Source: a virus (taxonomy: Duplodnaviria > Caudoviricetes). From it: a DNA stretch of 38,764 nt. The stretch lies in IMG/VR virus record IMGVR_UViG_3300020042_012255, positions 1 through 38,764 of that record, one strand, 5' to 3'. Under the pieces are notes generated by a model. That model was not told the origin of the DNA and did no database searches. It saw nothing but the letters and a program-made list of their open reading frames with translations. Position numbers and translations under genes: made by a program. Shown here piece after piece: positions 713-38,714 of the stretch (its first letter is position 1; every line of letters begins with the position of its first letter).

Positions 713-1585
713 TTAATTAATAACTAAAAAAGTAAATGTAATATTAGCTGTCGATGTCGTAGCTCCTGTCCCATTCGTAACAACTATCGTAGAAGAAGTT
801 GCAGCAACGTTTGTGTAGCTTTGGATAGATAGAGCTGAACCTGTAGTTGACCCAGTCATTGAATACAAAATGACCGTTCCTATAGCTGCGATGGTTGTAT
901 TGTTAATCACAAAACTTTGTGTGGCTCCAGCTGCTATACTCACACCTGTAAATGTAACGATTCCAACTCTTGCGTTGCATGTTTGGGGAGAAGCGCCCGA
1001 AACTACAGTTGCCGGAAAAAATAGACCATTTCCTGTTCCTGTAATTTCTATATCATTGTTAAAAGTAAAGCCAGCAGCTGATCCACCTGTAGAAAATGTA
1101 AGAGGTTGGCTGGGTGTCGAAGATAAAGAAATAGTTGCAGTATTTGTGCTTGCTCCAATTGCAAAACTAACCCCTCCAGCTCCTGCGTTACTTATGCTTA
1201 ATGGAGTAAGCAAAGACCCAGAAGATCCTGAATGAGTAGCAACGGGAACCGACAAAGTAGTTGTCGATGGGTTGTATGTCAGAGAGCTGTTTACGTTTAT
1301 TCCTAAGTTTCCACTTGTTGCACTTGCGAATAAAGGATAAAAAGTTGCGTTTGTTGAAACCGCTGTAATAGTGCTTGCTGAAGAAGCAGAATCAGAAACC
1401 CAATTTCCGGCTCCGGTAGTTACGTATAGAGTAGGAGGCGTGGTTCCTGTGTATTGCCAAACAGTATTTGCAGGGTATACATCTAATGTTGTAGGGATTC
1501 GATTTGCAAAAGGAATTGTGACGGGTCTTGTAAACTGATTTGTAAGAGCATCTAATGGATCTGTTGAAACCGATGAAACTGACAT
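713..1585 (-). CDS. Tail fibre/spike-like protein (modules A+B)
   Basis: S/T/G-rich, 290 aa. N-terminus shared with 1623..2960; internal segment shared with 36837..38714. Confidence 0.75.
   Translation of the reverse strand: MSVSSVSTDPLDALTNQFTRPVTIPFANRIPTTLDVYPANTVWQYTGTTPPTLYVTTGAGNWVSDSASSASTITAVSTNATFYPLFASATSGNLGINVNSSLTYNPSTTTLSVPVATHSGSSGSLLTPLSISNAGAGGVSFAIGASTNTATISLSSTPSQPLTFSTGGSAAGFTFNNDIEITGTGNGLFFPATVVSGASPQTCNARVGIVTFTGVSIAAGATQSFVINNTTIAAIGTVILYSMTGSTTGSALSIQSYTNVAATSSTIVVTNGTGATTSTANITFTFLVIN
1076..1321. repeat. Module B repeat, copy 1 (copy 2 at 37941-38186)
   Basis: 246-nt ungapped alignment with about 10 substitutions counted by eye, mostly synonymous. Confidence 0.9.
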
Positions 1586-1588
1586 AAT
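1393..1588. repeat. Module A repeat, copy 1 (copy 2 at 2768-2963)
   Basis: Both copies encode MSVSSVSTDPLDALTNQ...GAGNWVS, with many third-position differences. Confidence 0.9.
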
Positions 1589-1622
1589 GAGATTTCCTAT
1601 TTATTAATTTATAATCTTCCTA

Positions 1623-2960
1623 TCACACAGTCGTACCTATCACAACCCAGCTGATTGTTGATGTTGAATCTGTAAGATCTGTGGATCTAACGGTGACTGT
1701 GTTTAGTGTAGCTACGGCAGAAAGTATTCCAGGTGAAGCCTTAGGAACTATATAACTTGGTATAATAATATCACCTGCAACAACCGAAGTTGATGGGAAT
1801 GTAAAAACTCCGCTTGTTAAAATGCCTGTTCCTGCCGTTTGATTTGTTCCCGAACCTAAAGTAAGTTTTGATGCTGTTCCAAGTGTTAAACTTCCTGTAA
1901 TTGTCGTGTATGGAGTAGATGGTGGAGACCCTGAAAATCCTACATTACCTAAAAATATAATGTTTGATGCTCTTACATTAGCGACATTAGTTCCCTGTAT
2001 AGCAAGCAAACTTGATGTAGATAAAACGGTTGATGTTAAATCAAGAGGTGCCGACGATAAATAAGAAATACAAGGGTTTGCACCCGTAATAAATTTAGAG
2101 TTTGAAATCTGTCCACTGGCTGTACCTATTACCGCCAAAGGTTGATTAAATATAACATAATCGGCTGCAATGGTAGTTCCTGTTCGCGCAGTCCAAGGGC
2201 AATTAAGGACTATTTCTTGCAATATTACAGGGCCTGTTGTTGCCATTGTGTTTCCACTTCCGGCCCCCAAGGTTGCTGAAATAAAAAAGCAAGTGGAGCC
2301 ACCTGAATTATCCACGTATCCGTTGTTTGTGCTAAAATCAGCTGTGTTATAGAGAATTAGATCTCCTGTCCAATTCGGTACATTGAAAGTAAATCCGTTT
2401 GTACAGTTAACACCTAGATTTGTAAGCCATAGAGAAGCTGTTCCTACTGCTGTGGAGCTAAATATATGAGTTGAGCTTGTAAGTAAAACGTTTGCAAAAC
2501 AGAAAGAGCCTGTGCTAGGTGGGGTGTGCACTCCAGTGATAATTACACAGTTTCCAGAGGTTCCTGCATCAGAATTTCCTGTAGCTCCCGTAATAGAAGT
2601 GTTTCCGTACAAAGTTAAATTTTCTACATAAGTGCCAGGTTGAACCCATATTTGACCGCCACCCACTGCATTTGCTGCATTCAAAGCAGATTGAAGGGTT
2701 TGATATCCTGCTTGTCCTGCTGGGCCAACCACAAATCTTGTTATAGGAAAATTTCCTGATCCAACTACAGAAACCCAATTCCCTGCGCCAGATGTAACAT
2801 AAAGAGTAGGGGGTGTTGTTCCTATGTACTCCCATGTAGTGTTAGCAGGATACACATCTAGTGTTGTAGGAACTCGATTTGCGAATGGAATTGTGATCGG
2901 ACGGTTATACTGATTTGTAAGAGCGTCTAAAGGATCTGTTGAAACTGACGAAACTGACAT
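1623..2960 (-). CDS. Tailspike with pectin-lyase-like beta-helix (putative depolymerase/receptor-binding protein)
   Basis: YQTLQSALNAANAVGGGQIWVQPGTYVENL is a typical beta-helix cap. Start moved to ATG 2960 (GAGGT SD, matches the paralogue start). Confidence 0.75.
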   Translation of the reverse strand: MSVSSVSTDPLDALTNQYNRPITIPFANRVPTTLDVYPANTTWEYIGTTPPTLYVTSGAGNWVSVVGSGNFPITRFVVGPAGQAGYQTLQSALNAANAVGGGQIWVQPGTYVENLTLYGNTSITGATGNSDAGTSGNCVIITGVHTPPSTGSFCFANVLLTSSTHIFSSTAVGTASLWLTNLGVNCTNGFTFNVPNWTGDLILYNTADFSTNNGYVDNSGGSTCFFISATLGAGSGNTMATTGPVILQEIVLNCPWTARTGTTIAADYVIFNQPLAVIGTASGQISNSKFITGANPCISYLSSAPLDLTSTVLSTSSLLAIQGTNVANVRASNIIFLGNVGFSGSPPSTPYTTITGSLTLGTASKLTLGSGTNQTAGTGILTSGVFTFPSTSVVAGDIIIPSYIVPKASPGILSAVATLNTVTVRSTDLTDSTSTISWVVIGTTV

Positions 2961-3029
2961 AATAAAACCTCTTTTTTTCTTTAACGTTACATTTGTCAAG
3001 CAAACATTAGTAAAGAAATAAGTATAGAT

Positions 3030-3233
3030 TTATATGTTTTCGTATTTTTTGGCTGGCATTACAACAAGCACTTCCCAACCTGCTTTTTTGCAGATTTCGA
3101 GGTCCTTACGCGTCATAGATTTTGATTTCATAAGAGAACACAAAGTCATTGATAATGAGTTACATGGGTAGAACCTTTCATTACCATATGCGCTATGAAG
3201 AATCACTTCCACAGAGTATCTATTAGCACTCAT
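3030..3233 (-). CDS. Hypothetical protein
   Basis: 67-aa ORF with a weak SD (AAGG). Confidence 0.5.
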   Translation of the reverse strand: MSANRYSVEVILHSAYGNERFYPCNSLSMTLCSLMKSKSMTRKDLEICKKAGWEVLVVMPAKKYENI

Positions 3234-3764: not shown

Positions 3765-4229
3765 TTATGACAACTTCTGATATGCAAATCCTCCAGCTTT
3801 TAGAAGAGCGTTTACCGCAGCCCCTAAACTTGGGGTAACTCCTTTATGCCAAGCGTGATACCTATTCTGTCCAGAAGTCTTAGGCCCGACTCCTCCTCTC
3901 TCCAAAATTTTAAATATGTATTCAGGTACGCCTGCGTAAGAATAAACTGGCCCTTCGGCTTGAGGATATGGGCCGTGGAATTGCACTTTTAATTCTTGAG
4001 AATCTGGGTCATAATAGAAACCGTTAACATTTGAGCTTGGATATTCAGAAGAAGGTAGATTTAAGTCTGATCCATTTCCAATTCCAATTTCCGCTTCCTG
4101 TTCTTGGATCAATTGAATAGCTTCTTGAAACAAAGTCAATACTTGAGCCATTTCCTCTTCAGATAACTCATCAGCTAGCTCACCTGCCTGTTGCATCAGA
4201 GATTGAAGAAGATCAATTACTTCATCCAT
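3765..4229 (-). CDS. KTSC-domain protein with acidic helical N-terminus
   Basis: SSNVNGFYYDPDSQELKVQFH...VYSYAGVPEYIF fits the KTSC pattern. Confidence 0.75.
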   Translation of the reverse strand: MDEVIDLLQSLMQQAGELADELSEEEMAQVLTLFQEAIQLIQEQEAEIGIGNGSDLNLPSSEYPSSNVNGFYYDPDSQELKVQFHGPYPQAEGPVYSYAGVPEYIFKILERGGVGPKTSGQNRYHAWHKGVTPSLGAAVNALLKAGGFAYQKLS

Positions 4230-4987
4230 TATCGATTCCTAAGTCCTTGTAATGCTTGAGTAAGCTGGCTAAGACCAGCTAAAAATTCCTGCTTTCCCGA
4301 ACCTTGACCTTGTTGTTGCTCAGGTTGACCGTAACCACTAAATCTACTTTTTACGATGTCAATAAAAGGCATTCCTGTTTCTTGTTCCGCTGCTGCAATG
4401 ATTGGTTTAAATGCTGTATTGGCTCTTGCCGTGCTTACCGCTTTTTGAAGTGGCTCTCCTTTGCTAACTCTACTTTCTATAAATGAAAATAGTTTATCTA
4501 TTCCGTTCATGGCAGATGAACCAGGTTGGTTTTGTTCTTGGAGTCCTGCTCTAGATAGTGGAGATGGTTGTTTTGTTTGAGTTTGCATTTGAGGTTGCTC
4601 TGATTCATTTTCTGTAACCGATTGCCCTAAAACATTTGATAATCCTCCGAAAGCCCCTAATCCACCGGCTGTTGCAAGACCAGCTGTTGCTAATTGTTTT
4701 AGTGTTCCGGCTCTTTGTTCACCTTGCTGTATTTCTTGGGCAGCTACTCTTTCATCTGGACGAAGAGTTCCTTTTTTTACACCTTGGGAAAGTCTTGACT
4801 TTTCAGATTCAATGACAGGATTTTGAAATTTATTTCTCAAAAAAGATAAAGCTGCTGTAGTACCTATTCCGCTTTTGGTTGCATTTGAAAAGAATTTTCC
4901 CATCCTGGGATCAACTTTAGATAAACCCTTTTCAGCTAAATTTTCGGGAATTAATTGATGTAAAAGCGATTTCATTTTATCAATCAT
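4229..4987 (-). CDS. Putative internal virion/DNA ejection protein
   Basis: Helical, Q-rich, with a G/A-rich hydrophobic segment; follows the tail genes. Confidence 0.55.
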   Translation of the reverse strand: MIDKMKSLLHQLIPENLAEKGLSKVDPRMGKFFSNATKSGIGTTAALSFLRNKFQNPVIESEKSRLSQGVKKGTLRPDERVAAQEIQQGEQRAGTLKQLATAGLATAGGLGAFGGLSNVLGQSVTENESEQPQMQTQTKQPSPLSRAGLQEQNQPGSSAMNGIDKLFSFIESRVSKGEPLQKAVSTARANTAFKPIIAAAEQETGMPFIDIVKSRFSGYGQPEQQQGQGSGKQEFLAGLSQLTQALQGLRNR

Positions 4988-13284: not shown

Positions 13285-13892
13285 TTATAGTCTTTGAGTT
13301 ACGTTTAGACCAGTCACCCAGTTTTGGTTAGTGATCGCTCTCGCAATCGCAAACTTAGCGTAGAGTTGGCTGTTTTGTGCAACTGACGAAACAACGTAAG
13401 GAGGTCTATATCCCAACACTGCCGAATAGTTGTTTTGCTCGATTTTTGCAGCAGCTTCCATGCCATACATTGGAATTGTATAGACGGTTTGTCCACCTGG
13501 TTGAGAGATTCCAGGAATCTTCGCGGCTTTAGAGCTGACAAAGAATCTAAATCTGGAAACAGAGCAATACTCTTCTGGTCTCAATCCCTGCTGGTTTGGA
13601 TATGCGTTCTTTAAAAGAACACCCTGCACGTTTTGAAGGTCAGGTGTAATATCTGTAGAAGCAAGTGCTATAAACGCATCTCGAGTAGGAGCTGTTGCAA
13701 ACTTAAGATCTGCATCAATTCCTTCAAGCATTGTTCTTGCATCATTACCAAGCAAAATACGTTCGATGTTGTTCACATCATTACGAGAGATTTCGCTGGG
13801 CTGCTGGCCGTTGATACCCCCGACTGCGTTTAAATAACTTACGCTTGAAGCGTACAGGTCACGCATTAGCAAATCTTCCTTCTCTCTCATCC
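13285..13892 (-). CDS. Major capsid protein (N4-gp56-like), exon 2
   Basis: (W)MREKEDLLMRD...EEYCSVSRFRF...ITNQNW is the C-terminal part of an HK97-fold capsid; in frame with exon 1 after splicing. Confidence 0.85.
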
Positions 13893-14148
13893 CTAAAAAA
13901 ATTTTTTTACAATTTTTTTCTGTTACTTTTGTGACCCTGTGTAATCATTACACATTGGCGGTGCAACTTCTTCGAATCGCACTCTCTATGTTTCCATAGA
14001 GTTCAGACTATCGCTTACCCTATTTCTAGAGTCCCTCTCACTTAGTCGTTCACGGTGGCTTTCGCCTTCCGCCCTGTTATCCGTCTGCTTTAAGCAGCGA
14101 GGACGTCCAAGTCAATCAGAGTGGGTTTAAAGTCAGCAGATAATGTTA
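13893..14148 (-). ncRNA. Group I self-splicing intron (256 nt, no homing endonuclease ORF)
   Basis: P1 GUCAGU/GCUGAC with U-G at the 5' splice site; P10 UUAUCU/GGAUGA; P3 CCCACUC/GAGAGGG; P7 GACUA/UAGUC; P8; P9 CUCUAUG-GAAA-CAUAGAG; terminal G. Removal restores CAG-TGG-ATG in frame. Confidence 0.92.
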
Positions 14149-14509
14149 ACTGACCTAATAATGCAGTGAACTTTGTAAGAACCTTATCGTTCTCATACAA
14201 AGTAACTTGCTCATTTATGACTACTGTCTTAGCATAAATTTCTGTTGTAGCATCAATATCAGTACGTACGACAACTTCAGGAGCTGGATCAATACCAGAA
14301 CCATCAAGTTGACCGCCTTCTGTTGATAGACGCTCATATCTCGACATACGAGTAGTTTTACCGATGTGCGCTTCAGCATAGTGAAGGTCAGCACCAAAGG
14401 AGTGAATTAAATTGAACATTGGCGTGCTTAAGAGATCTTCGCTAAATTGTAGCGGAAGCTCCGGAGCCATGTTCTGAATGTTTGTGATACCTGTAGTAGA
14501 AACAGACAT
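14149..14509 (-). CDS. Major capsid protein (N4-gp56-like), exon 1
   Basis: GKTTRMSRYERL...LDGSGIDP capsid N-terminal motifs; 120 codons plus 1 nt. Confidence 0.85.
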
Positions 14510-14648: not shown

Positions 14649-14876
14649 TTAATTATCAATATTCTTATCTGGAAACGGAAAGTCTTCTGCATACATCCAC
14701 CAGTAGTTTGGCAAAAGATTTTCTTTCTTGCAGTAATTTATGTATTCATTCCAATCTACACCATGTGAGTCATATTTTCTCATTCCTATTGGATAATGTC
14801 CTTCATATGGAGCATCTATCTGAATGATTTCCCTTCCATCTTCAGGCTGACAATCTAATATATGATTCCATTTCAT
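14649..14876 (-). CDS. Small DUF551-like hypothetical protein
   Basis: MKWNHILDCQPEDG...YWWMY pattern; ATGA coupling with the scaffold gene. Confidence 0.55.
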   Translation of the reverse strand: MKWNHILDCQPEDGREIIQIDAPYEGHYPIGMRKYDSHGVDWNEYINYCKKENLLPNYWWMYAEDFPFPDKNIDN

Positions 14877-21531: not shown

Positions 21532-21625
21532 TACCAATTTCCTACCAAAATCTACTTCCTACCAAAATCTACCAATTTGGTATTAAAATAATTTTTATAT
21601 TTCTGAACCCTGAATAACCCTGAAA
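21532..21625. repeat. Short repeat cluster
   Basis: TTCCTACCAAAATCTAC x2 (21539-21572), inverted repeat TACCAA-T-TTGGTA, AACCCTGAA x2. Confidence 0.7.
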
Positions 21626-26069: not shown

Positions 26070-26315
26070 TCAAAATCCGTCTCCAGATCCATCTCTATTT
26101 CCAGATCCATCTAGGTGTGCAAATCCATACCCATATGCATCTTCAAATCCAGATCCAGATCCAGAACCAAATCCATCTCCTTCTCCAGATACACATCCAG
26201 ATCCAGAACCGTAACTAAATCCAGATCCAAATCCATAGCCATGTCCAGAGCCATGTCCAGAGCCATGTCCAGAGCCATGTCCAGAGCCAAATTCAAAATC
26301 TATTACTCTTTCCAT
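26070..26315 (-). CDS. Gly/Ser-repeat (GSG/GYG/GDG) protein
   Basis: Low-complexity GX repeats, including the 12-nt tandem AGCCATGTCCAG x4 (26237-26284); coupled to the upstream gene. Confidence 0.7.
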   Translation of the reverse strand: MERVIDFEFGSGHGSGHGSGHGSGHGYGFGSGFSYGSGSGCVSGEGDGFGSGSGSGFEDAYGYGFAHLDGSGNRDGSGDGF

Positions 26316-28289: not shown

Positions 28290-28638
28290 ATTGCACCCAA
28301 ATAATTTTTATACGATCATCTGATATATAAACTATTTTTGGAAGAAAAATATGAAAGAAAAATTTGACTCTTTTTTTTGGGTCATGGCTTTGATAATTAT
28401 ACTCGTAACATTAGCAATACTGTTCAAAAAATGCTACTTATCAAAAATTCCAGGAATCTTCTATTAATCGTTCCAGAATCTATGACGATATGATAGAGAT
28501 TTAAGAAAATATATCATTACCATTTTCCATCTCGGGATATATTTGTATTCGTCTTCCATTACTTCTTGTTTTTTACCTCTTTAGATATAACTTGTTTAAC
28601 TTGTACATCTTAAATTAAAAAAATTTATTTATAAAGAA

Positions 28639-33682: not shown

Positions 33683-35305
33683 TTAGTTTATATATTCTGT
33701 AATTATTATAATTCCTGAAGCTCCTTCCCCACCCATCGCTCCTGTACTTCCGCAAGAATTTCCACCACCACCTCCACCACCGTACAAAAATCCGTTGCCA
33801 CCCGATTCATTTGTTGGGCTTCCTCCGACTCTCCCACGTCCTCCTGCTCCAAGAAAAGATGCTCCACCAGGACCTGAGCTAGAAATAACAAGTGAGATTG
33901 AAACTCCACCAACCCCAAATGAGAAGTTGCTGGTTCCTCCAGGAACGTGTAAATATCCACCGACACCTCCACTGCCACCTGCTACCCCTGGTTGACTTGA
34001 CGAAGACGCAGATGAGTCGCCAAAACCTCCGATTCCGCCCAATGTGGTCAATAAAATTCCAAACGTTGTATTTCCGCCTAATGATCCATTTCCACCAATA
34101 GAACCTGCACTTCCTCCAACTCCTATGGTTACAGTTTGCGAAGGACCTATTTGAGAATCTGTAAACAATCCCTCGGCATATTCTCCACCACCACCGCCCG
34201 AGCCAGCTGAATTGTTAGTTATAATTCCTAATTGCGATGCAGCTCCTCCACCTCCACCGCCTCCTGCTTGCGCTTGCACTTTACAATACGTCATTCCTGG
34301 CGTAGGAGTATAAGTACCAGAAGAAGTGAAAGTTTGAACATTTATTTGAAAAGGGGTTGTAGGTGAAAATTGCTGAAATATGATTGGGTCAGTGCCAATT
34401 GTTATAACATCTGCTGTTTGAAGCCAAATAGTTCTTGCAAATGTTGTTCCTTGCTGAACGGGAATTAAGTTTCCCTTTGCTATTGGAGGTACTGTGTTGT
34501 AATCCGTAGAGCGCGTAAGAATCCAATTTGTCGAAACACTTCCTATGTCAGTTACTACATATACTCCGTTCTGAAACTGTGTAGTCTGCGCTTGAACTAA
34601 AACTCTGTTACTTACAGACAGTGAAACTCCATCTATAACTAGAGCTGCTTGTGTTCCTGAATTAGTTAAAGTAGCTCCAACACCAGCAGCTCCATTGCTA
34701 TAGATTGCTGTTAAATTTACTGTTGTTGCAACAAGAGTTGCTTGTATGAATGTAAATCCAGCTGCTATTTGGTCTACATAGGCTTTATTAGCTCCATCCG
34801 TTGCGCTAACTGGAGCGTTAGTAATAGTAATTGTACTTACAGTGGGAGAATCTGTAGAAGAAATATCAGAAGTTCCGTTTCCCTGTAAAATCTGTCCTGC
34901 CGTAAATGTATTAGCTCCTGTTCCCCCGTTAGTTACGGGAACGATGCCAGTGATTGCAACCGTTTCTGTGTTTGTGCCTGCATTTCCGGCTACTGTAATT
35001 ACAGATCCATCACCAACCAAATTTATGTTTCCGTTTGTATCGGAGCCAACAATAACTGAATCATTACCGGTTACTGTCTCGATTGCAGGTCTTACATTTG
35101 ACAGATCTTGCCAAGTGGCTACTCCTCCAAATAAATTACCTAAAATAAAAAATTGAGCCGGATTCACTGTATAGTAAATCCATATATCACCTATTTCTGC
35201 ATTTATATCAGTGGGTAACGGAGCCCTATTATTTCGTATAACATTCGGTGGGTTTTTTGGTAATACACCTAAATAGCCTTGCGGATTTGAAGAAATTGAA
35301 GACAT
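33683..35305 (-). CDS. Tail fibre protein with C-terminal glycine-rich domain
   Basis: DGANKAYVD and RVLVQAQT..QNGVYVV fibre motifs; FTSSGTYTP...GGGGGGG domain. Confidence 0.8.
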   Translation of the reverse strand: MSSISSNPQGYLGVLPKNPPNVIRNNRAPLPTDINAEIGDIWIYYTVNPAQFFILGNLFGGVATWQDLSNVRPAIETVTGNDSVIVGSDTNGNINLVGDGSVITVAGNAGTNTETVAITGIVPVTNGGTGANTFTAGQILQGNGTSDISSTDSPTVSTITITNAPVSATDGANKAYVDQIAAGFTFIQATLVATTVNLTAIYSNGAAGVGATLTNSGTQAALVIDGVSLSVSNRVLVQAQTTQFQNGVYVVTDIGSVSTNWILTRSTDYNTVPPIAKGNLIPVQQGTTFARTIWLQTADVITIGTDPIIFQQFSPTTPFQINVQTFTSSGTYTPTPGMTYCKVQAQAGGGGGGGAASQLGIITNNSAGSGGGGGEYAEGLFTDSQIGPSQTVTIGVGGSAGSIGGNGSLGGNTTFGILLTTLGGIGGFGDSSASSSSQPGVAGGSGGVGGYLHVPGGTSNFSFGVGGVSISLVISSSGPGGASFLGAGGRGRVGGSPTNESGGNGFLYGGGGGGGNSCGSTGAMGGEGASGIIIITEYIN

Positions 35306-35318
35306 TTTTTCTCTTATT

Positions 35319-36488
35319 TTATGTTTGAATATATTCTGTTATCATGACAATTCCTGCGCTACCGGCTCCTCCTGATTGCGCTCCCCCTTGATACTGAGAT
35401 GCACCGCCTGATCCGCCAGCCCCATAACCTGTAGCAGTATTTCCATTTGCTCCAGAAACAGTGTTTCCATTGACTTCTTGTCCGCCAGCTCCATATATTC
35501 CGCTTGCTCCGACTCCGCTTATGCTTACTTGAAGTCCTGTTAACTTTATAGAAAATGAAGATCCCCCAGACGCTCCTTTAAAACGAAGAGATCCGCCTGA
35601 TCCGCCAGTGCCTCCGGCGCCACCTGTAACAACTGGATCTCCAACACCTGCTCCATTTCCACCCGTTGCGCCAACAGCTGTGATTATAGCGCCAAAAGAA
35701 GAAGTGCCACCATTGCCCCCAGGATTATTTCCTGCTGCACCTCCAGCTCCTGCTGTGCCAACAGTTATAACTTGAGAAGCTCCGATTGTAGCAGCTGATA
35801 CAAAACCTGAAGCATATTCACCGTACCCACCACCGCCCGATGCAGAGTTGTTGGGTATTCCCTGATTTGCTACTCCACCACCACCTCCTCCTCCTCCTAT
35901 AACTTCAACATATGCATAGGATAAACCAGTTGTAGGTGTATACGTTCCTGACGCGGAAAAAACCTGTTTATTTAAAGTAAGTCCTGAAGGCGAAACTCCC
36001 CACGGGTAATTATTTCCTGCTTCGTCCTGGTAAATAGGAACTGAAAGTCCTGTGATTCCGCTTACGGAAGAATAAATCTGTGCAGCAATTTGGCCTCCGC
36101 CAAAAACTGGCGGTGGATTTCCCGATAGTATAGAAATCCCATGCGAATGAAAAAACGTCTCTGATGTATTTTCAAATGATATTGATCCGATTGCAAAATT
36201 TGCATTGTACATAAGGATTTCTGAGTTATCTAAAACGTCTTTAGAAAGCGTTATTTGTGCGCTAGACCCAAATCCATTTGATGTAACCGAACCCAAAAAA
36301 ATAGAATTCCCAGACCCATCATCTAAAGTATTGTTAGTTGTATCTACAACACCTGTAAAAATAGGATTGCCTTGCACAGACACAATAGGATTTTCGGGGT
36401 CTGTGCTATCTACCGCAATGTTTGATCCAGCTACAATAGAATCAACCGTACCAACATTTGGATTAGACGTTACTTGATAATTTGACAT
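35319..36488 (-). CDS. Tail fibre protein (module C plus glycine-rich domain)
   Basis: N-terminus shared with 36837..38714; C-terminal domain homologous to that of 33683..35305. Confidence 0.8.
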   Translation of the reverse strand: MSNYQVTSNPNVGTVDSIVAGSNIAVDSTDPENPIVSVQGNPIFTGVVDTTNNTLDDGSGNSIFLGSVTSNGFGSSAQITLSKDVLDNSEILMYNANFAIGSISFENTSETFFHSHGISILSGNPPPVFGGGQIAAQIYSSVSGITGLSVPIYQDEAGNNYPWGVSPSGLTLNKQVFSASGTYTPTTGLSYAYVEVIGGGGGGGGVANQGIPNNSASGGGGYGEYASGFVSAATIGASQVITVGTAGAGGAAGNNPGGNGGTSSFGAIITAVGATGGNGAGVGDPVVTGGAGGTGGSGGSLRFKGASGGSSFSIKLTGLQVSISGVGASGIYGAGGQEVNGNTVSGANGNTATGYGAGGSGGASQYQGGAQSGGAGSAGIVMITEYIQT

Positions 36489-36515
36489 GAGTTCCTAAAT
36501 ACAATTTATAAAAAT
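36375..36515. repeat. Module C repeat including the upstream intergenic sequence (other copy about 38601-38742)
   Basis: MSNYQVTSN...VDSIVAG.NI.VD.TDPENPIVSV in both genes, plus the shared flank TTCCTAAATA...TTATAAAAATT. Confidence 0.85.
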
Positions 36516-36823
36516 TATATTTCTTTTTTATTTCTGTTTTCTAATTTTTCTCTTTGTGATCTGTCTTTGTATTCAGGATGAGAAAAAATAAGTTCGGCTA
36601 ATTTTTCATCGGAAGTAGGAATTAATTCATAATATTCTTCGAGCTTATCTTTCCAATCCTTTTTCAATCTTTCCATGCAGTTTTCATACTTATGCATCAG
36701 TATGTAATGTATTCTTCTTTTCATATCCTCTTCGAAAATCTCAGAAGGTATGTCATTTTTAATTACTTTCTTTTGGGTTTCTGAAAGTGTAAATAATTCT
36801 TTTCCGTCTACTTCTATTTTCAT
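36515..36823 (-). CDS. Hypothetical protein, possible fibre assembly chaperone
   Basis: 102 aa, charged and helical, directly after the long fibre gene; AAGGA SD. Confidence 0.65.
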   Translation of the reverse strand: MKIEVDGKELFTLSETQKKVIKNDIPSEIFEEDMKRRIHYILMHKYENCMERLKKDWKDKLEEYYELIPTSDEKLAELIFSHPEYKDRSQREKLENRNKKEI

Positions 36824-36836
36824 ATTTTCCTTCTTT

Positions 36837-38714
36837 TTAACATGCTAAATAACCGGTGAAAAAAGTTTGCATATTTAAATCTCCATATAAGTCATCTACT
36901 TTTCCTCCGCTGTCGGTGCTTTGAATTCTCACTGTACATACATCTCCTGCATCCATATCAACTAAAGCTGAAAGAGGATTACCGGATCTTGTAAATGAAG
37001 ATTGTGGAGTTGAATAAAAATAGTTTCTGTTGGATGTACCAAAACTTGTGTCAATGAGTGAAATATTAGTCCCCTGATAAAGAAGAGCACCGGCAGAAAA
37101 TTGATATCTTCCCGTAATCGGAGCTGTAAACACTCCAGTTGCGTTATTATAATTTCCTGCTTGGTCAAAAACTTCCGTATCAAAAATAATTGTAAAAAGG
37201 GTAAGGTCTCCGGTTACATTGTTAGAAACAAAACTTTTATAAGCGGAAAAAGCAGGCTGAAGAGGATAATTAAATTGTCCTGATGTATTAGCTCTCATTA
37301 CATTAGTAATACCAAGTGTGGTAGAAGCGCTTATTACAAGAGAATCAGAATCAGAGTTATCCACTCCTAAAGTCCAGTTCGTTACTCCTGTTACAGTAAA
37401 AGTTGCTACGGCATCTCCTGAGCTAGCACCACCCGTAGTAAGTTGCAATCTGGCATTAGATGCTGCGTTGGTATTATCAGTATTAGATACCGTTAAAACT
37501 CTTGCAGTACCAGCTGTTGTGCTTGTATAGGAAAAGTTATTAGCTACAGTAAGTCCAAGCGAAGGAACTCCAGTTCCGCTTGTAACCAGAACACTATTAT
37601 TAGCAGTAGCTAAACCAGCTACTGTGTTTGTAGCACTGGAATAGAGAAGTTGACTTACTGTCGTGGTTGCAGGATACGTTGCAGTTGACCAAGCAGGTGC
37701 TGTGGCATTTCCTGACAATAAAACTCTATTTGCAGCGGCTACCCCTGATAAAATAGCCATTGCACTTGATGTTGAATAAACAATTCCACCATTCGAAGCT
37801 GTCAAGTTTGCGTTTGTTCCCCCATAAACCAAAGGAATCAAAGAAGCATTCCAAGTTCCAGCTGTTATTACACCCGAGTTAGAGACCGTAAATTGAGAAG
37901 CAGAACCAGCGGATAAAGCTCCTATAAAATTAAATCCAAGAGCTGATCCACCTGTACCAAATGTAAGTGGTTGGCTGGGTGTCGAAGATAAAGAAATAGT
38001 TGCAGTATTTGTGCTTGCTCCAATTGCAAAACTAACCCCTCCAGCTCCTGCGTTACTTATGCTTAACGGAGTGAGCAAAGACCCAGAAGACCCTGAATGC
38101 GTCGCAACGGGAACCGACAAAGTAGTTGTCGATGGATTGTATGTCAAAGAGCTGTTTACGTTTATTCCTAAGTTTCCACTTGTTGCGCTCATAAACGCAG
38201 GGAAAAAGCTAGCATTCGTTGTTGTGGATGTTACTGTGCTAGTTGTAGACGTAGTAGCTGTCGTAGCATTAGAAGCTGTTCCTGTCAAGTTAGCTGTAAT
38301 AGTGCCTGCGCTAAAGTTTCCAGATCCATCTCTTTGAACTAGTGTGCTTGCTGTATTTGCGTTTGTGTACGCAAGACTTACTAAATTCTTGCTTCCGTTT
38401 GTTACTACAGCTTGTGATGCCGTAAGAGCTGTGATTGCTCCCAACTCAGTTATATTAGCTTGCACGGCTGATGGAAGTGTTGTACTTAAAGAAGGAACTC
38501 CCGATCCGTTAGTTACAAGCGTAGAATTATTAGCTATTGCAAGGGATGTAAGAGATCCAGATGCATTCCCTATTTGAATTGCGTTTTGTGTTGTTCCCGA
38601 CACGGAAACAATGGGATTTTCAGGGTCTGTGTTATCTACATTGATGTTTGCTCCAGCTACGATAGAATCAACCCCACCCGTATTTGAATTTGAAGTTACT
38701 TGATAATTAGACAT
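36837..38714 (-). CDS. Long tail fibre with C-terminal C1q/TNF-like domain
   Basis: T/S/A/G-rich shaft; QPAFSAY...FDTEVFDQAGNYNNATGVFTAPITGRYQF...MDAGD is C1q-like. Confidence 0.85.
   Translation of the reverse strand: MSNYQVTSNSNTGGVDSIVAGANINVDNTDPENPIVSVSGTTQNAIQIGNASGSLTSLAIANNSTLVTNGSGVPSLSTTLPSAVQANITELGAITALTASQAVVTNGSKNLVSLAYTNANTASTLVQRDGSGNFSAGTITANLTGTASNATTATTSTTSTVTSTTTNASFFPAFMSATSGNLGINVNSSLTYNPSTTTLSVPVATHSGSSGSLLTPLSISNAGAGGVSFAIGASTNTATISLSSTPSQPLTFGTGGSALGFNFIGALSAGSASQFTVSNSGVITAGTWNASLIPLVYGGTNANLTASNGGIVYSTSSAMAILSGVAAANRVLLSGNATAPAWSTATYPATTTVSQLLYSSATNTVAGLATANNSVLVTSGTGVPSLGLTVANNFSYTSTTAGTARVLTVSNTDNTNAASNARLQLTTGGASSGDAVATFTVTGVTNWTLGVDNSDSDSLVISASTTLGITNVMRANTSGQFNYPLQPAFSAYKSFVSNNVTGDLTLFTIIFDTEVFDQAGNYNNATGVFTAPITGRYQFSAGALLYQGTNISLIDTSFGTSNRNYFYSTPQSSFTRSGNPLSALVDMDAGDVCTVRIQSTDSGGKVDDLYGDLNMQTFFTGYLAC

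What the first reader, a model, noticed from the sequence alone, without database searches (positions are those of the whole stretch)
13893..14148. Minimal group I intron splits the major capsid gene, so capsid synthesis depends on self-splicing
Seen: exon 1 ends ...GGT CAG T and exon 2 starts GG ATG AGA. Removing 256 nt gives LLGQ-W-MREKED and a 322-aa capsid protein. The intervening RNA has P1 with the U-G splice-site wobble, P10 to exon 2, P3, P7 (GACUA/UAGUC), P8, P9 with a GAAA loop, further P9-region hairpins and a terminal G. Unspliced RNA hits a stop 19 codons into the intron. Established: the best-known phage group I introns lie in DNA-metabolism genes and often carry homing endonucleases. 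This one has no ORF and I see no endonuclease elsewhere in the genome. Inference: either a relic that lost its endonuclease, or a domesticated guanosine-dependent gate on the most abundant virion protein.
Basis: partly seen in the sequence, partly recalled or inferred. Interest (0 to 1): 0.85.

Follow-up and report, generated by a model that had tools for sequence, protein, structure and literature searches.

The report
Spliced intron in phage capsid gene
A 256-base group I intron with no gene of its own splits this uncultured phage's major capsid gene, and community RNA of a close strain holds the exact joined form; it is likely an ordinary mobile passenger that swaps parts with sister introns, not a control switch.

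Summary
Observation confirmed, on the minus strand. Removing 14148-13893 gives a 322-aa N4-gp56-type capsid protein; 94 of 94 full-length homologues are colinear across the junction. P1, P10 and P3-P9.2 are present and covary in 60 relatives. One metatranscriptome contig skips exactly these 256 bases and matches the exons of a strain whose DNA carries the intron.

The 'domesticated gate' reading is not supported. 69 of 72 related loci that cover the site lack an intron there. Close strains have none, or have one at other codons. Three of four other same-site introns encode LAGLIDADG proteins. The intron is a mosaic: its guide follows the site (13/14 with a distant same-site intron); its core follows the phage lineage (94-98% to an intron 17 codons away).

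Capsid-gene introns, ORF-less virion-gene introns and retargeted cores are published (PMC3706429, PMC7886860, PMC2504315), and this scan noted the family before on other DNA. Own features: RNA support, and a 27-nt 3' tail against 4-6 nt in 15 of 15 relatives. New member of a known kind; interest 0.3.

The parts
14149..14509 (-). Exon 1 of the major capsid gene (120 codons + 1 nt, ends in U)
   Evidence: matches TIGR04387 profile positions 1-110
13893..14148 (-). ORF-less group I intron, 256 nt, terminal G at 13893
   Evidence: RNA contig joins 13892 to 14149; an intronless DNA allele joins at the same bases
13285..13892 (-). Exon 2 of the major capsid gene, including the stop codon
   Evidence: matches TIGR04387 profile positions 115-268
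14130..14156 (-). P1: exon end 14156-14149 pairs with the guide 14137-14130 (8 bp, U.G at the 5' splice site); the P10 strand 14143-14138 lies in its loop
   Evidence: compensatory change in same-site introns L020, L069, L071, L284
13887..13892 (-). Exon 2 strand of P10 (6 bp with 14143-14138)
14033..14125 (-). P3 (14125-14119 with 14039-14033) enclosing P4 (14111-14108/14076-14073), P5 with P5a, P6 (14072-14069/14055-14052) and P6a
   Evidence: all 7 P3 pairs, 3 of 4 P5 pairs and 5 of 6 P6/P6a pairs have two-sided changes
14005..14049 (-). P7 (14049-14043 with 14010-14005), predicted guanosine-binding G-C pair 14047/14006; P8 14032-14017 inside
   Evidence: last P7 pair A-U in 48, G-C in 12 of 60
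13934..14001 (-). P9 with GAAA loop (14001-13984), P9.1 (13982-13961), P9.2 (13959-13934)
13893..13926 (-). Conserved GUAACAG motif (13926-13920), then a 27-nt tail with a weak A-U hairpin; 13894-13909 is a perfect 16-bp DNA palindrome
14090..14092 (-). In-frame stop met by ribosomes on unspliced RNA

Best explanation
A 256-nt ORF-less group I intron interrupts codon 121 of the phage's N4-gp56-type major capsid gene; the exactly joined exons occur in community RNA, and the intron likely removes itself by ordinary guanosine-started self-splicing and is likely a near-neutral mobile passenger. Shown: boundaries, fold, colinear protein, joined RNA contig. Inferred from group I chemistry: a free guanosine bound in P7 attacks the U.G pair in P1, then exon 1 attacks after the terminal G, aligned by P10; unspliced RNA gives a 139-aa stub. 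Inferred history: the site is a homing target, held in other phages by introns with LAGLIDADG genes. This copy has no such gene. It probably persists by descent and by recombination in mixed infections, which also swaps ribozyme cores between introns at neighbouring sites while the site-specific guide stays.
For: Protein: 94 of 94 full-length homologues among the 120 listed have Trp121 and an ungapped junction. An intronless homologue passes the TIGR04387 cut-off, 76.4 against 60 bits. Structure: 34 of 48 pairs show two-sided changes, 96.8% of cells pair, 0 of 500 shuffles reach this, and slid controls give 37-45%. P1 and P10 re-form with different sequence in same-site and other-site introns, and 16 of 16 have U|...G ends. 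RNA: a 153-nt contig in run X10 joins 13892 to 14149. It carries the five exon 2 differences and one exon 1 difference of the strain in DNA runs X1 and X2 of the same study. There, contigs cross both splice sites into the intron and no joined form is listed. Passenger: 3 of 72 covering loci have an intron at this site, and 17 of 74 have one somewhere in the gene, at eight or more sites. LAGLIDADG proteins are encoded in same-site introns L020, L071 and L284. Mosaic: guide 14-mer 0.93 to L284 but core modules 0.62/0.60; core modules 0.94/0.98 to L012 (codon 138, about 92% identical genome) but guide 0.57.
Against: The RNA evidence is one low-depth contig (depth 2.3) of 3 RNA runs laid, from a sample other than the DNA runs. 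An intronless sister strain or DNA carry-over is not excluded, and an intronless DNA allele with the same joint exists in run X5, though it lacks four of the five exon 2 differences. The RNA is of a close strain, not of the window's own genome. Protein-free self-splicing was not tested. Rfam score is below the gathering threshold. The 60 aligned introns were chosen by a P4/P7 motif, so invariance there is circular, and the pairing was partly read from that alignment. No endonuclease-bearing intron close in core to this one was found, so how it arrived is inferred.
Confidence: 0.85

Rival explanations
1. Simple relic: a direct descendant of an endonuclease-bearing intron at this site that deleted its ORF, with no later exchange of parts.
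For: Three of four other same-site introns have LAGLIDADG ORFs; L284 shares 13 of 14 guide bases. The gain-and-loss cycle is described in PMC2504315 and PMC3984707 (passages read).
Against: Core modules are only 0.41-0.74 identical to the four same-site introns but 0.94-0.98 to L012 at codon 138. A second intron near codon 187 in strain X1/X2 shares the same core pieces, with 0 differences over 13918-13967 and 3 over 14044-14116.
Confidence: 0.06
2. The ORF-less ribozyme itself moves to new sites by guide-directed reverse splicing, so the same core appears at several codons of the gene.
For: Near-identical cores sit at codons 121, 138 and 187, and a 91% core near codon 102, in close strains. 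L012's guide at codon 138 is 0.93 identical to codon-187 introns (L070, L145), and both sites end in UUCGGU. The codon-146 intron L056 has a guide 0.86 like this one and a look-alike target.
Against: For this intron, and for the codon-187 and codon-102 introns in X1/X2 and X7, the 5' end matches distant introns of the same site, which fits core swapping and not fresh guide evolution. L012 differs from the window by 21 of 60 nt just upstream of its intron against 0-7 elsewhere, which suggests exon co-conversion; PMC2504315 states that reverse splicing gives none. No reverse transcriptase appears among the 80 ORFs scanned.
Confidence: 0.05
3. Domesticated gate: the phage keeps the intron so that capsid output depends on guanosine or on folding conditions.
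For: Full-length capsid protein does need splicing. The family is concentrated in capsid genes, 37 of 53 flanks. The 3' tail is unusual and shared with strain X1/X2. A riboswitch-controlled group I intron is known (PMC3984707, passage).
Against: Absent at this site in 69 of 72 loci. Strain X5 (693 exon 2 bases, 48 differences) has no intron in the gene stretch, and X3 and X7 have it elsewhere. No other Rfam family lies in 13700-14350 at E up to 10. The tail is not conserved in 15 of 15 relatives. Conserved, much-targeted sites explain the capsid bias without regulation (inference).
Confidence: 0.03
4. Not an intron: two separate genes, a dead gene, or an assembly artefact.
For: Gene callers list separate products of 190-212 aa for some relatives; exon 2 begins near an ATG.
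Against: Colinear single proteins in 94 homologues. That Met is Leu in 71 of 94 and is changed by 13888 C>G in strain X1/X2. Independent DNA assemblies cross both junctions. Covariation and the joined RNA contig.
Confidence: 0.01

Closest known systems
Mycobacteriophage LittleE capsid-gene intron and BAKA/Optimus 265-bp tail-gene intron (Pope et al. 2013, PMC3706429; abstract, outline and passages read)
   Same: Probable group I intron in a major capsid gene, spliced in vivo, with U|...G ends. A related ORF-less intron of similar size lies in a virion gene and shares a 98% identical 156-bp segment with the capsid intron.
   Different: LittleE's intron is 819 bp with an antisense LAGLIDADG-like ORF, in a siphovirus with a known host. 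Here the intron is ORF-less, in an uncultured phage with a P22-like portal and N4-gp56-type capsid. Sequence relationship was not tested directly; those phages were not among the 32 blastn records.
TMP-IVS1/IVS2/IVS3 introns of Bacillus cereus group prophages (Tourasse and Kolsto 2008, PMC2504315; passages and section 8 part 1 read)
   Same: Group I introns at several sites of one virion gene, some lacking a complete endonuclease gene; cores 90-92% identical between sites with P1 adapted to each; different cores with the same guide at one site.
   Different: Tape-measure gene; assigned to IA1/IA2. This intron has no P2 and only 3 nt between P7 and P3; its subgroup was not assigned.
Group I introns in major capsid genes of crAss-like phages (Yutin et al. 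2021, PMC7886860; passages read)
   Same: Capsid genes interrupted by group I introns, one gene split into five fragments.
   Different: Found through intron-encoded protein domains in large gut phages; no ribozyme structure or RNA junction in the passages read.
Rfam RF00028 Intron_gpI
   Same: P7, P8 and P9 and the R and S motifs align.
   Different: 23.1 bits against a gathering score of 50; routine annotation misses it. PMC11878797 (passages) reports the same shortfall for phage introns.

Membership tests
Group I intron | U.G pair at the 5' splice site in P1 | tested here: met
   8-bp P1; re-formed with other sequence in 15 relatives, 6-8 bp in 14 and 3 bp in L025
Group I intron | Terminal G and P10 pairing to exon 2 | tested here: met
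   G at 13893, 6-bp P10, best of 18 candidate Gs
Group I intron | P3-P7 pseudoknot with the guanosine-binding G-C pair next to a bulge | tested here: met
   P3: 7 of 7 pairs covary. P7: 1 of 6 covaries, the rest invariant, partly by selection of the set
Group I intron | P4-P5-P6 domain | tested here: met
   P4 varies on one side only
Group I intron | Precise removal from RNA | tested here: met
   one RNA contig of a close strain, exact 256-base skip; an intronless sister strain is not formally excluded
Group I intron | Protein-free, guanosine-started self-splicing | not testable with these tools
   needs an in vitro assay
Rfam RF00028 | Score at or above 50 bits | tested here: not met
   23.1 bits, E 0.0011; filed as group I on structure, not as an RF00028 match
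Group I subgroups (IA1-IE) | Match to subgroup models; peripheral elements P2, P7.1, P7.2 | tested here: inconclusive
   No P2 or P7.1/P7.2 in the sequence; subgroup models were not available
Mobile (homing) group I intron | Homing endonuclease ORF in the intron | tested here: not met
   No ORF of 60 aa or more
Collaborative homing pair (ORF-less intron + free-standing endonuclease) | Free-standing endonuclease in the same genome | tested here: not met
   None in Pfam scans of 80 of 103 ORFs, nor in six-frame searches with PF14528, PF13392, PF01541 and the L284 protein; an unrecognised family is possible
N4-gp56 family major capsid protein (TIGR04387) | Profile score above the 60-bit cut-off | tested here: met
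   Intronless homologue P0002 (94% to exon 2) scores 76.4. The two exons alone score 31.7 and 27.7 on consecutive profile parts; the joined protein was not submitted
Riboswitch-gated intron | Ligand-binding aptamer coupled to a splice site | tested here: not met
   No other Rfam family in 13700-14350; an unknown aptamer cannot be excluded

The most novel reading that the evidence does not exclude
Within one phage species an endonuclease-free ribozyme core is being re-aimed at new sites of the capsid gene (codons 102, 121, 138, 187) by exchanging short guide modules, and at least one move (a codon-187 guide now at a look-alike site at codon 138) is a recent ectopic transposition. That would be a living system in which to test how ORF-less group I introns reach new sites.
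Probability: 0.2. Interest if true: 0.6.

Novelty: new member of a known kind. Interest (0 to 1): 0.3.

Why it matters
It corrects the annotation: the capsid gene is one 322-aa product, not two ORFs, and Rfam's threshold misses the intron. The family is large (about 740 viral stretches estimated to hold the core motif) and mostly in capsid genes, so such genes are likely often mis-called. The strain series (no intron; codon 121; 121 + 187; 138; about 102) gives natural variants for asking how ORF-less introns spread, for which PMC3984707 says direct evidence of the RNA route is lacking. The 27-nt tail shows that the 3' splice site tolerates an inserted hairpin.

Tried and rejected
Rfam at gathering score: no hit. 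Pfam and PHROGs do not recognise either exon; NCBIfam does. Other splice-site pairs: 59 in-frame U|G pairs near the ends were listed; the stated one restores Trp121, has the best P10 and matches the RNA joint. The G at 13910, which resembles the relatives' 3' end, has no P10 and is out of frame. A second intron of this family in the window: none. Internal promoter or terminator: counts at chance level, 4 against 4.0 and 2 against 1.1. The 16-bp palindrome has two looser copies elsewhere (3 matches; 2 of 100 shuffles reach 3), not followed up. Host: not found. The capsid protein has no match in 50,697 phage records. Six GTDB contigs from unrelated taxa are probably misbinned (inference). The Atlas gave only viral clusters. 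The metagenome scan kept the best 80 of 215 loci, all uninterrupted; this is biased towards intronless alleles and was not used for frequencies. RNA runs X8, X10 and X18 have no contig inside the intron, which shows nothing about splicing efficiency. My guess that L070's intron ORF resembles window 14649-14876 failed (the notebook entry (e) is void). No tree of intron cores was built; the mosaic claim rests on module identities. Recombination between T4 introns is recalled and named in an earlier scan note, not checked in a paper. Five literature searches (listings only) showed no paper on this phage group or intron family; most subscription journals are not covered and no supplements were read.

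Full report
Context. The window is a complete 38,764-base virus record with direct terminal repeats. It has a terminase, a P22-like portal, tail-fibre-like genes and an ERF/YqaJ/SSB recombination set. The host is unknown. The finding lies on the minus strand, in the virion gene block downstream of the portal.

Observation. Exon 1 (14509-14149) ends in U; the 256-nt insert ends in G; joining gives 322 aa with Trp121 formed at the junction. The unspliced frame stops after 139 aa. A search with exon 2 found 675 proteins. Of the 120 listed, 94 are 305-330 aa, and all 94 read xLxGQW[L/M]REKED without a gap. One of them passes the cut-off of the N4-gp56 capsid family, and the two exons match consecutive parts of that profile. 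A DNA contig in run X5 joins 13892 to 14149 exactly, which gives the empty site.

Structure. The minus strand folds better than 200 of 200 shuffles (z -4.6). Rfam RF00028 matches weakly (23.1 bits, below 50). I aligned 60 of 67 complete ORF-less cores, leaving out 7 near-duplicates. For a 48-pair model of P3-P9.2, 96.8% of cells pair and 34 pairs change on both sides; 0 of 500 shuffles reach this and slid controls give 37-45%. The invariance of P4 and P7 is partly due to how the set was chosen, and the pairing was partly read from the same alignment. P1 (8 bp) and P10 (6 bp) are in register. In 15 related introns whose ends were fixed by protein comparison, both helices re-form with different sequence, weakly in L025 (P1, 3 bp) and L012 (P10, 2 bp), and all have U|...G ends. 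There is no P2 and no P7.1/P7.2; I did not assign a subgroup.

RNA. Of 19 runs listed, I laid 8: 3 RNA and 5 DNA, all as contigs. RNA run X10 has a 153-nt contig, depth 2.3, that skips exactly the 256 bases. Its six differences from the window are those of the strain in DNA runs X1 and X2 of the same study, where contigs run across both splice sites into the intron and no joined form is listed. The intronless strain in X5 lacks four of the five exon 2 differences. This is good but not final evidence: one contig, another sample, and rare alleles drop out of contigs. RNA run X8 has a 21-base loose end identical to the joined exons of L012 at codon 138, and ten listed differences agree with L012; this is a weaker, second sign of splicing in the family. 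X18 does not reach the junction.

Distribution. Of 74 viral loci with this capsid gene, 18 have an insertion and 17 match a model built from the family (L047 and L048 have the same boundaries and length). Sites lie at codons 31, 100, 102, 121, 124, 138, 146 and 187; the ends of L055 and L068 near 102-104 were not fixed. At codon 121, 3 of 72 covering loci have an intron (L020, L069, L071), and a pattern search added L284. L020, L071 and L284 encode LAGLIDADG proteins at different places in the RNA, L284 on the antisense strand; L069's is ORF-less. Across the wider family, 37 of 53 flanking frames tested are major head proteins, 7 tape measure, 2 ribonucleotide reductase, 1 each portal, terminase and HNH, and 4 have no hit. 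These 53 are of 94 flanks; left out were the window, 6 loci of this capsid family, 27 short loci and 7 further flanks of loci already used. Close strains differ in intron state: X5 none, X1/X2 codons 121 and about 187, L012 and X3 codon 138, X7 about codon 102. This turnover argues against a conserved control role.

Mosaic. The 14 bases before P3 match L284 at 0.93 and L069/L071 at 0.79 (same site), while the P4-P6 and P9 modules match L012 at 0.94 and 0.98 (other site; genome about 92% identical) and the same-site introns at 0.41-0.74. The second intron in X1/X2 has a 5' end like L070's codon-187 intron but core pieces nearly identical to this one. So guides follow the site and cores follow the phage lineage. 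Recombination between introns is the simplest reading (inference). L012 also differs from the window at 21 of the 60 bases that span the stretch between the two sites, against 0-7 per 60 elsewhere, as expected of exon co-conversion during homing. L012's guide resembles codon-187 introns (0.93) and both targets end alike, which leaves room for an ectopic jump.

Peculiarity. The conserved GUAACAG motif is 27 nt from the terminal G here and 4-6 nt in 15 of 15 relatives. The extra bases form a weak A-U hairpin (-3.5 kcal/mol). Strain X1/X2 keeps the tail with one base fewer, and the RNA joint uses the distal G.

Mechanism. Shown: boundaries, fold, colinear protein, joined RNA in a close strain, no endonuclease gene found. 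From established group I chemistry (PMC3984707 section 5): guanosine bound in P7 attacks the P1 splice site, and P1 and P10 juxtapose the two sites. Inferred: near-neutral persistence, arrival by homing of an endonuclease-bearing form or in trans, later core exchange. Capsid synthesis does depend on splicing, but that holds for any intron in an essential gene and is no sign of regulation.

Comparison. Pope et al. 2013 (PMC3706429; abstract, outline, passages) showed a spliced capsid-gene intron and an ORF-less 265-bp tail-gene intron sharing a 98% segment, and cite a capsid intron in Tuc2009 (second-hand, not read). Yutin et al. 2021 (PMC7886860; passages) report introns in crAss-like capsid genes. 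Tourasse and Kolsto 2008 (PMC2504315; passages, section 8 part 1) describe conserved cores with site-adapted P1 in one phage gene. PMC11878797 (passages) notes that current models miss phage introns. PMC3073962 (passages) was read for regulation and gave no capsid case in the passages shown. Earlier notes of this scan describe the same family, antisense endonucleases and mosaics on other DNA; they are unchecked and were used as leads only.

Verdict. Real, well supported, and a new member of a known kind. Interest 0.3.

Noticed in passing
L008 2644-2687: A 44-nt frameshifting insert at codon 105 of the capsid gene with U|...G ends and no ribozyme core. No family intron in that record (62% complete). 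Guide pairing is weak and the insert reads like coding DNA, so it may be a core-less mini-intron, a dead gene or a misassembly.
   Followed up: partly
L034 760-1556, L047 2699-3502, L055 about 2205-3045, L069 about 3915-4715, L284 960-2042: Introns with ORFs on the antisense strand. Pfam names LAGLIDADG for L047, L055 and L284; L034 and L069 have the motif by eye but no Pfam hit.
   Followed up: partly
L020 4392-4904 and L071 4236-4859: Sense LAGLIDADG ORFs that run into the ribozyme core (through P6' and P7) before their stop.
   Followed up: no
Runs X1/X2, near window 13697: A second intron near codon 187 whose core collapses with the codon-121 intron in the assembly graph; such twins may cause misassembled capsid genes.
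   Followed up: partly
L070 4326-5000: A 675-nt intron with an 80-aa ORF of no Pfam family in P9 and a further insert in P8; not similar to window 14649-14876.
   Followed up: partly
L022 4658-5000 and L027 560-857: Introns with 60-100 extra bases in the P6 loop, possibly remnants of a deleted ORF.
   Followed up: no
window 26070-26315: 81-aa ORF with Gly-Ser-Gly-His/Gly-x-Gly repeats next to a DUF6948 gene.
   Followed up: no
window 713-2999 and 33683-38714: Five tail-fibre-like genes around the ends of the record; pairs share N-termini, and two share an internal stretch of about 70 aa, which suggests module shuffling.
   Followed up: no
window 13894-13909, 21584-21599, 28616-28631: An A/T palindrome in the intron tail with two looser copies between genes elsewhere.
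   Followed up: no
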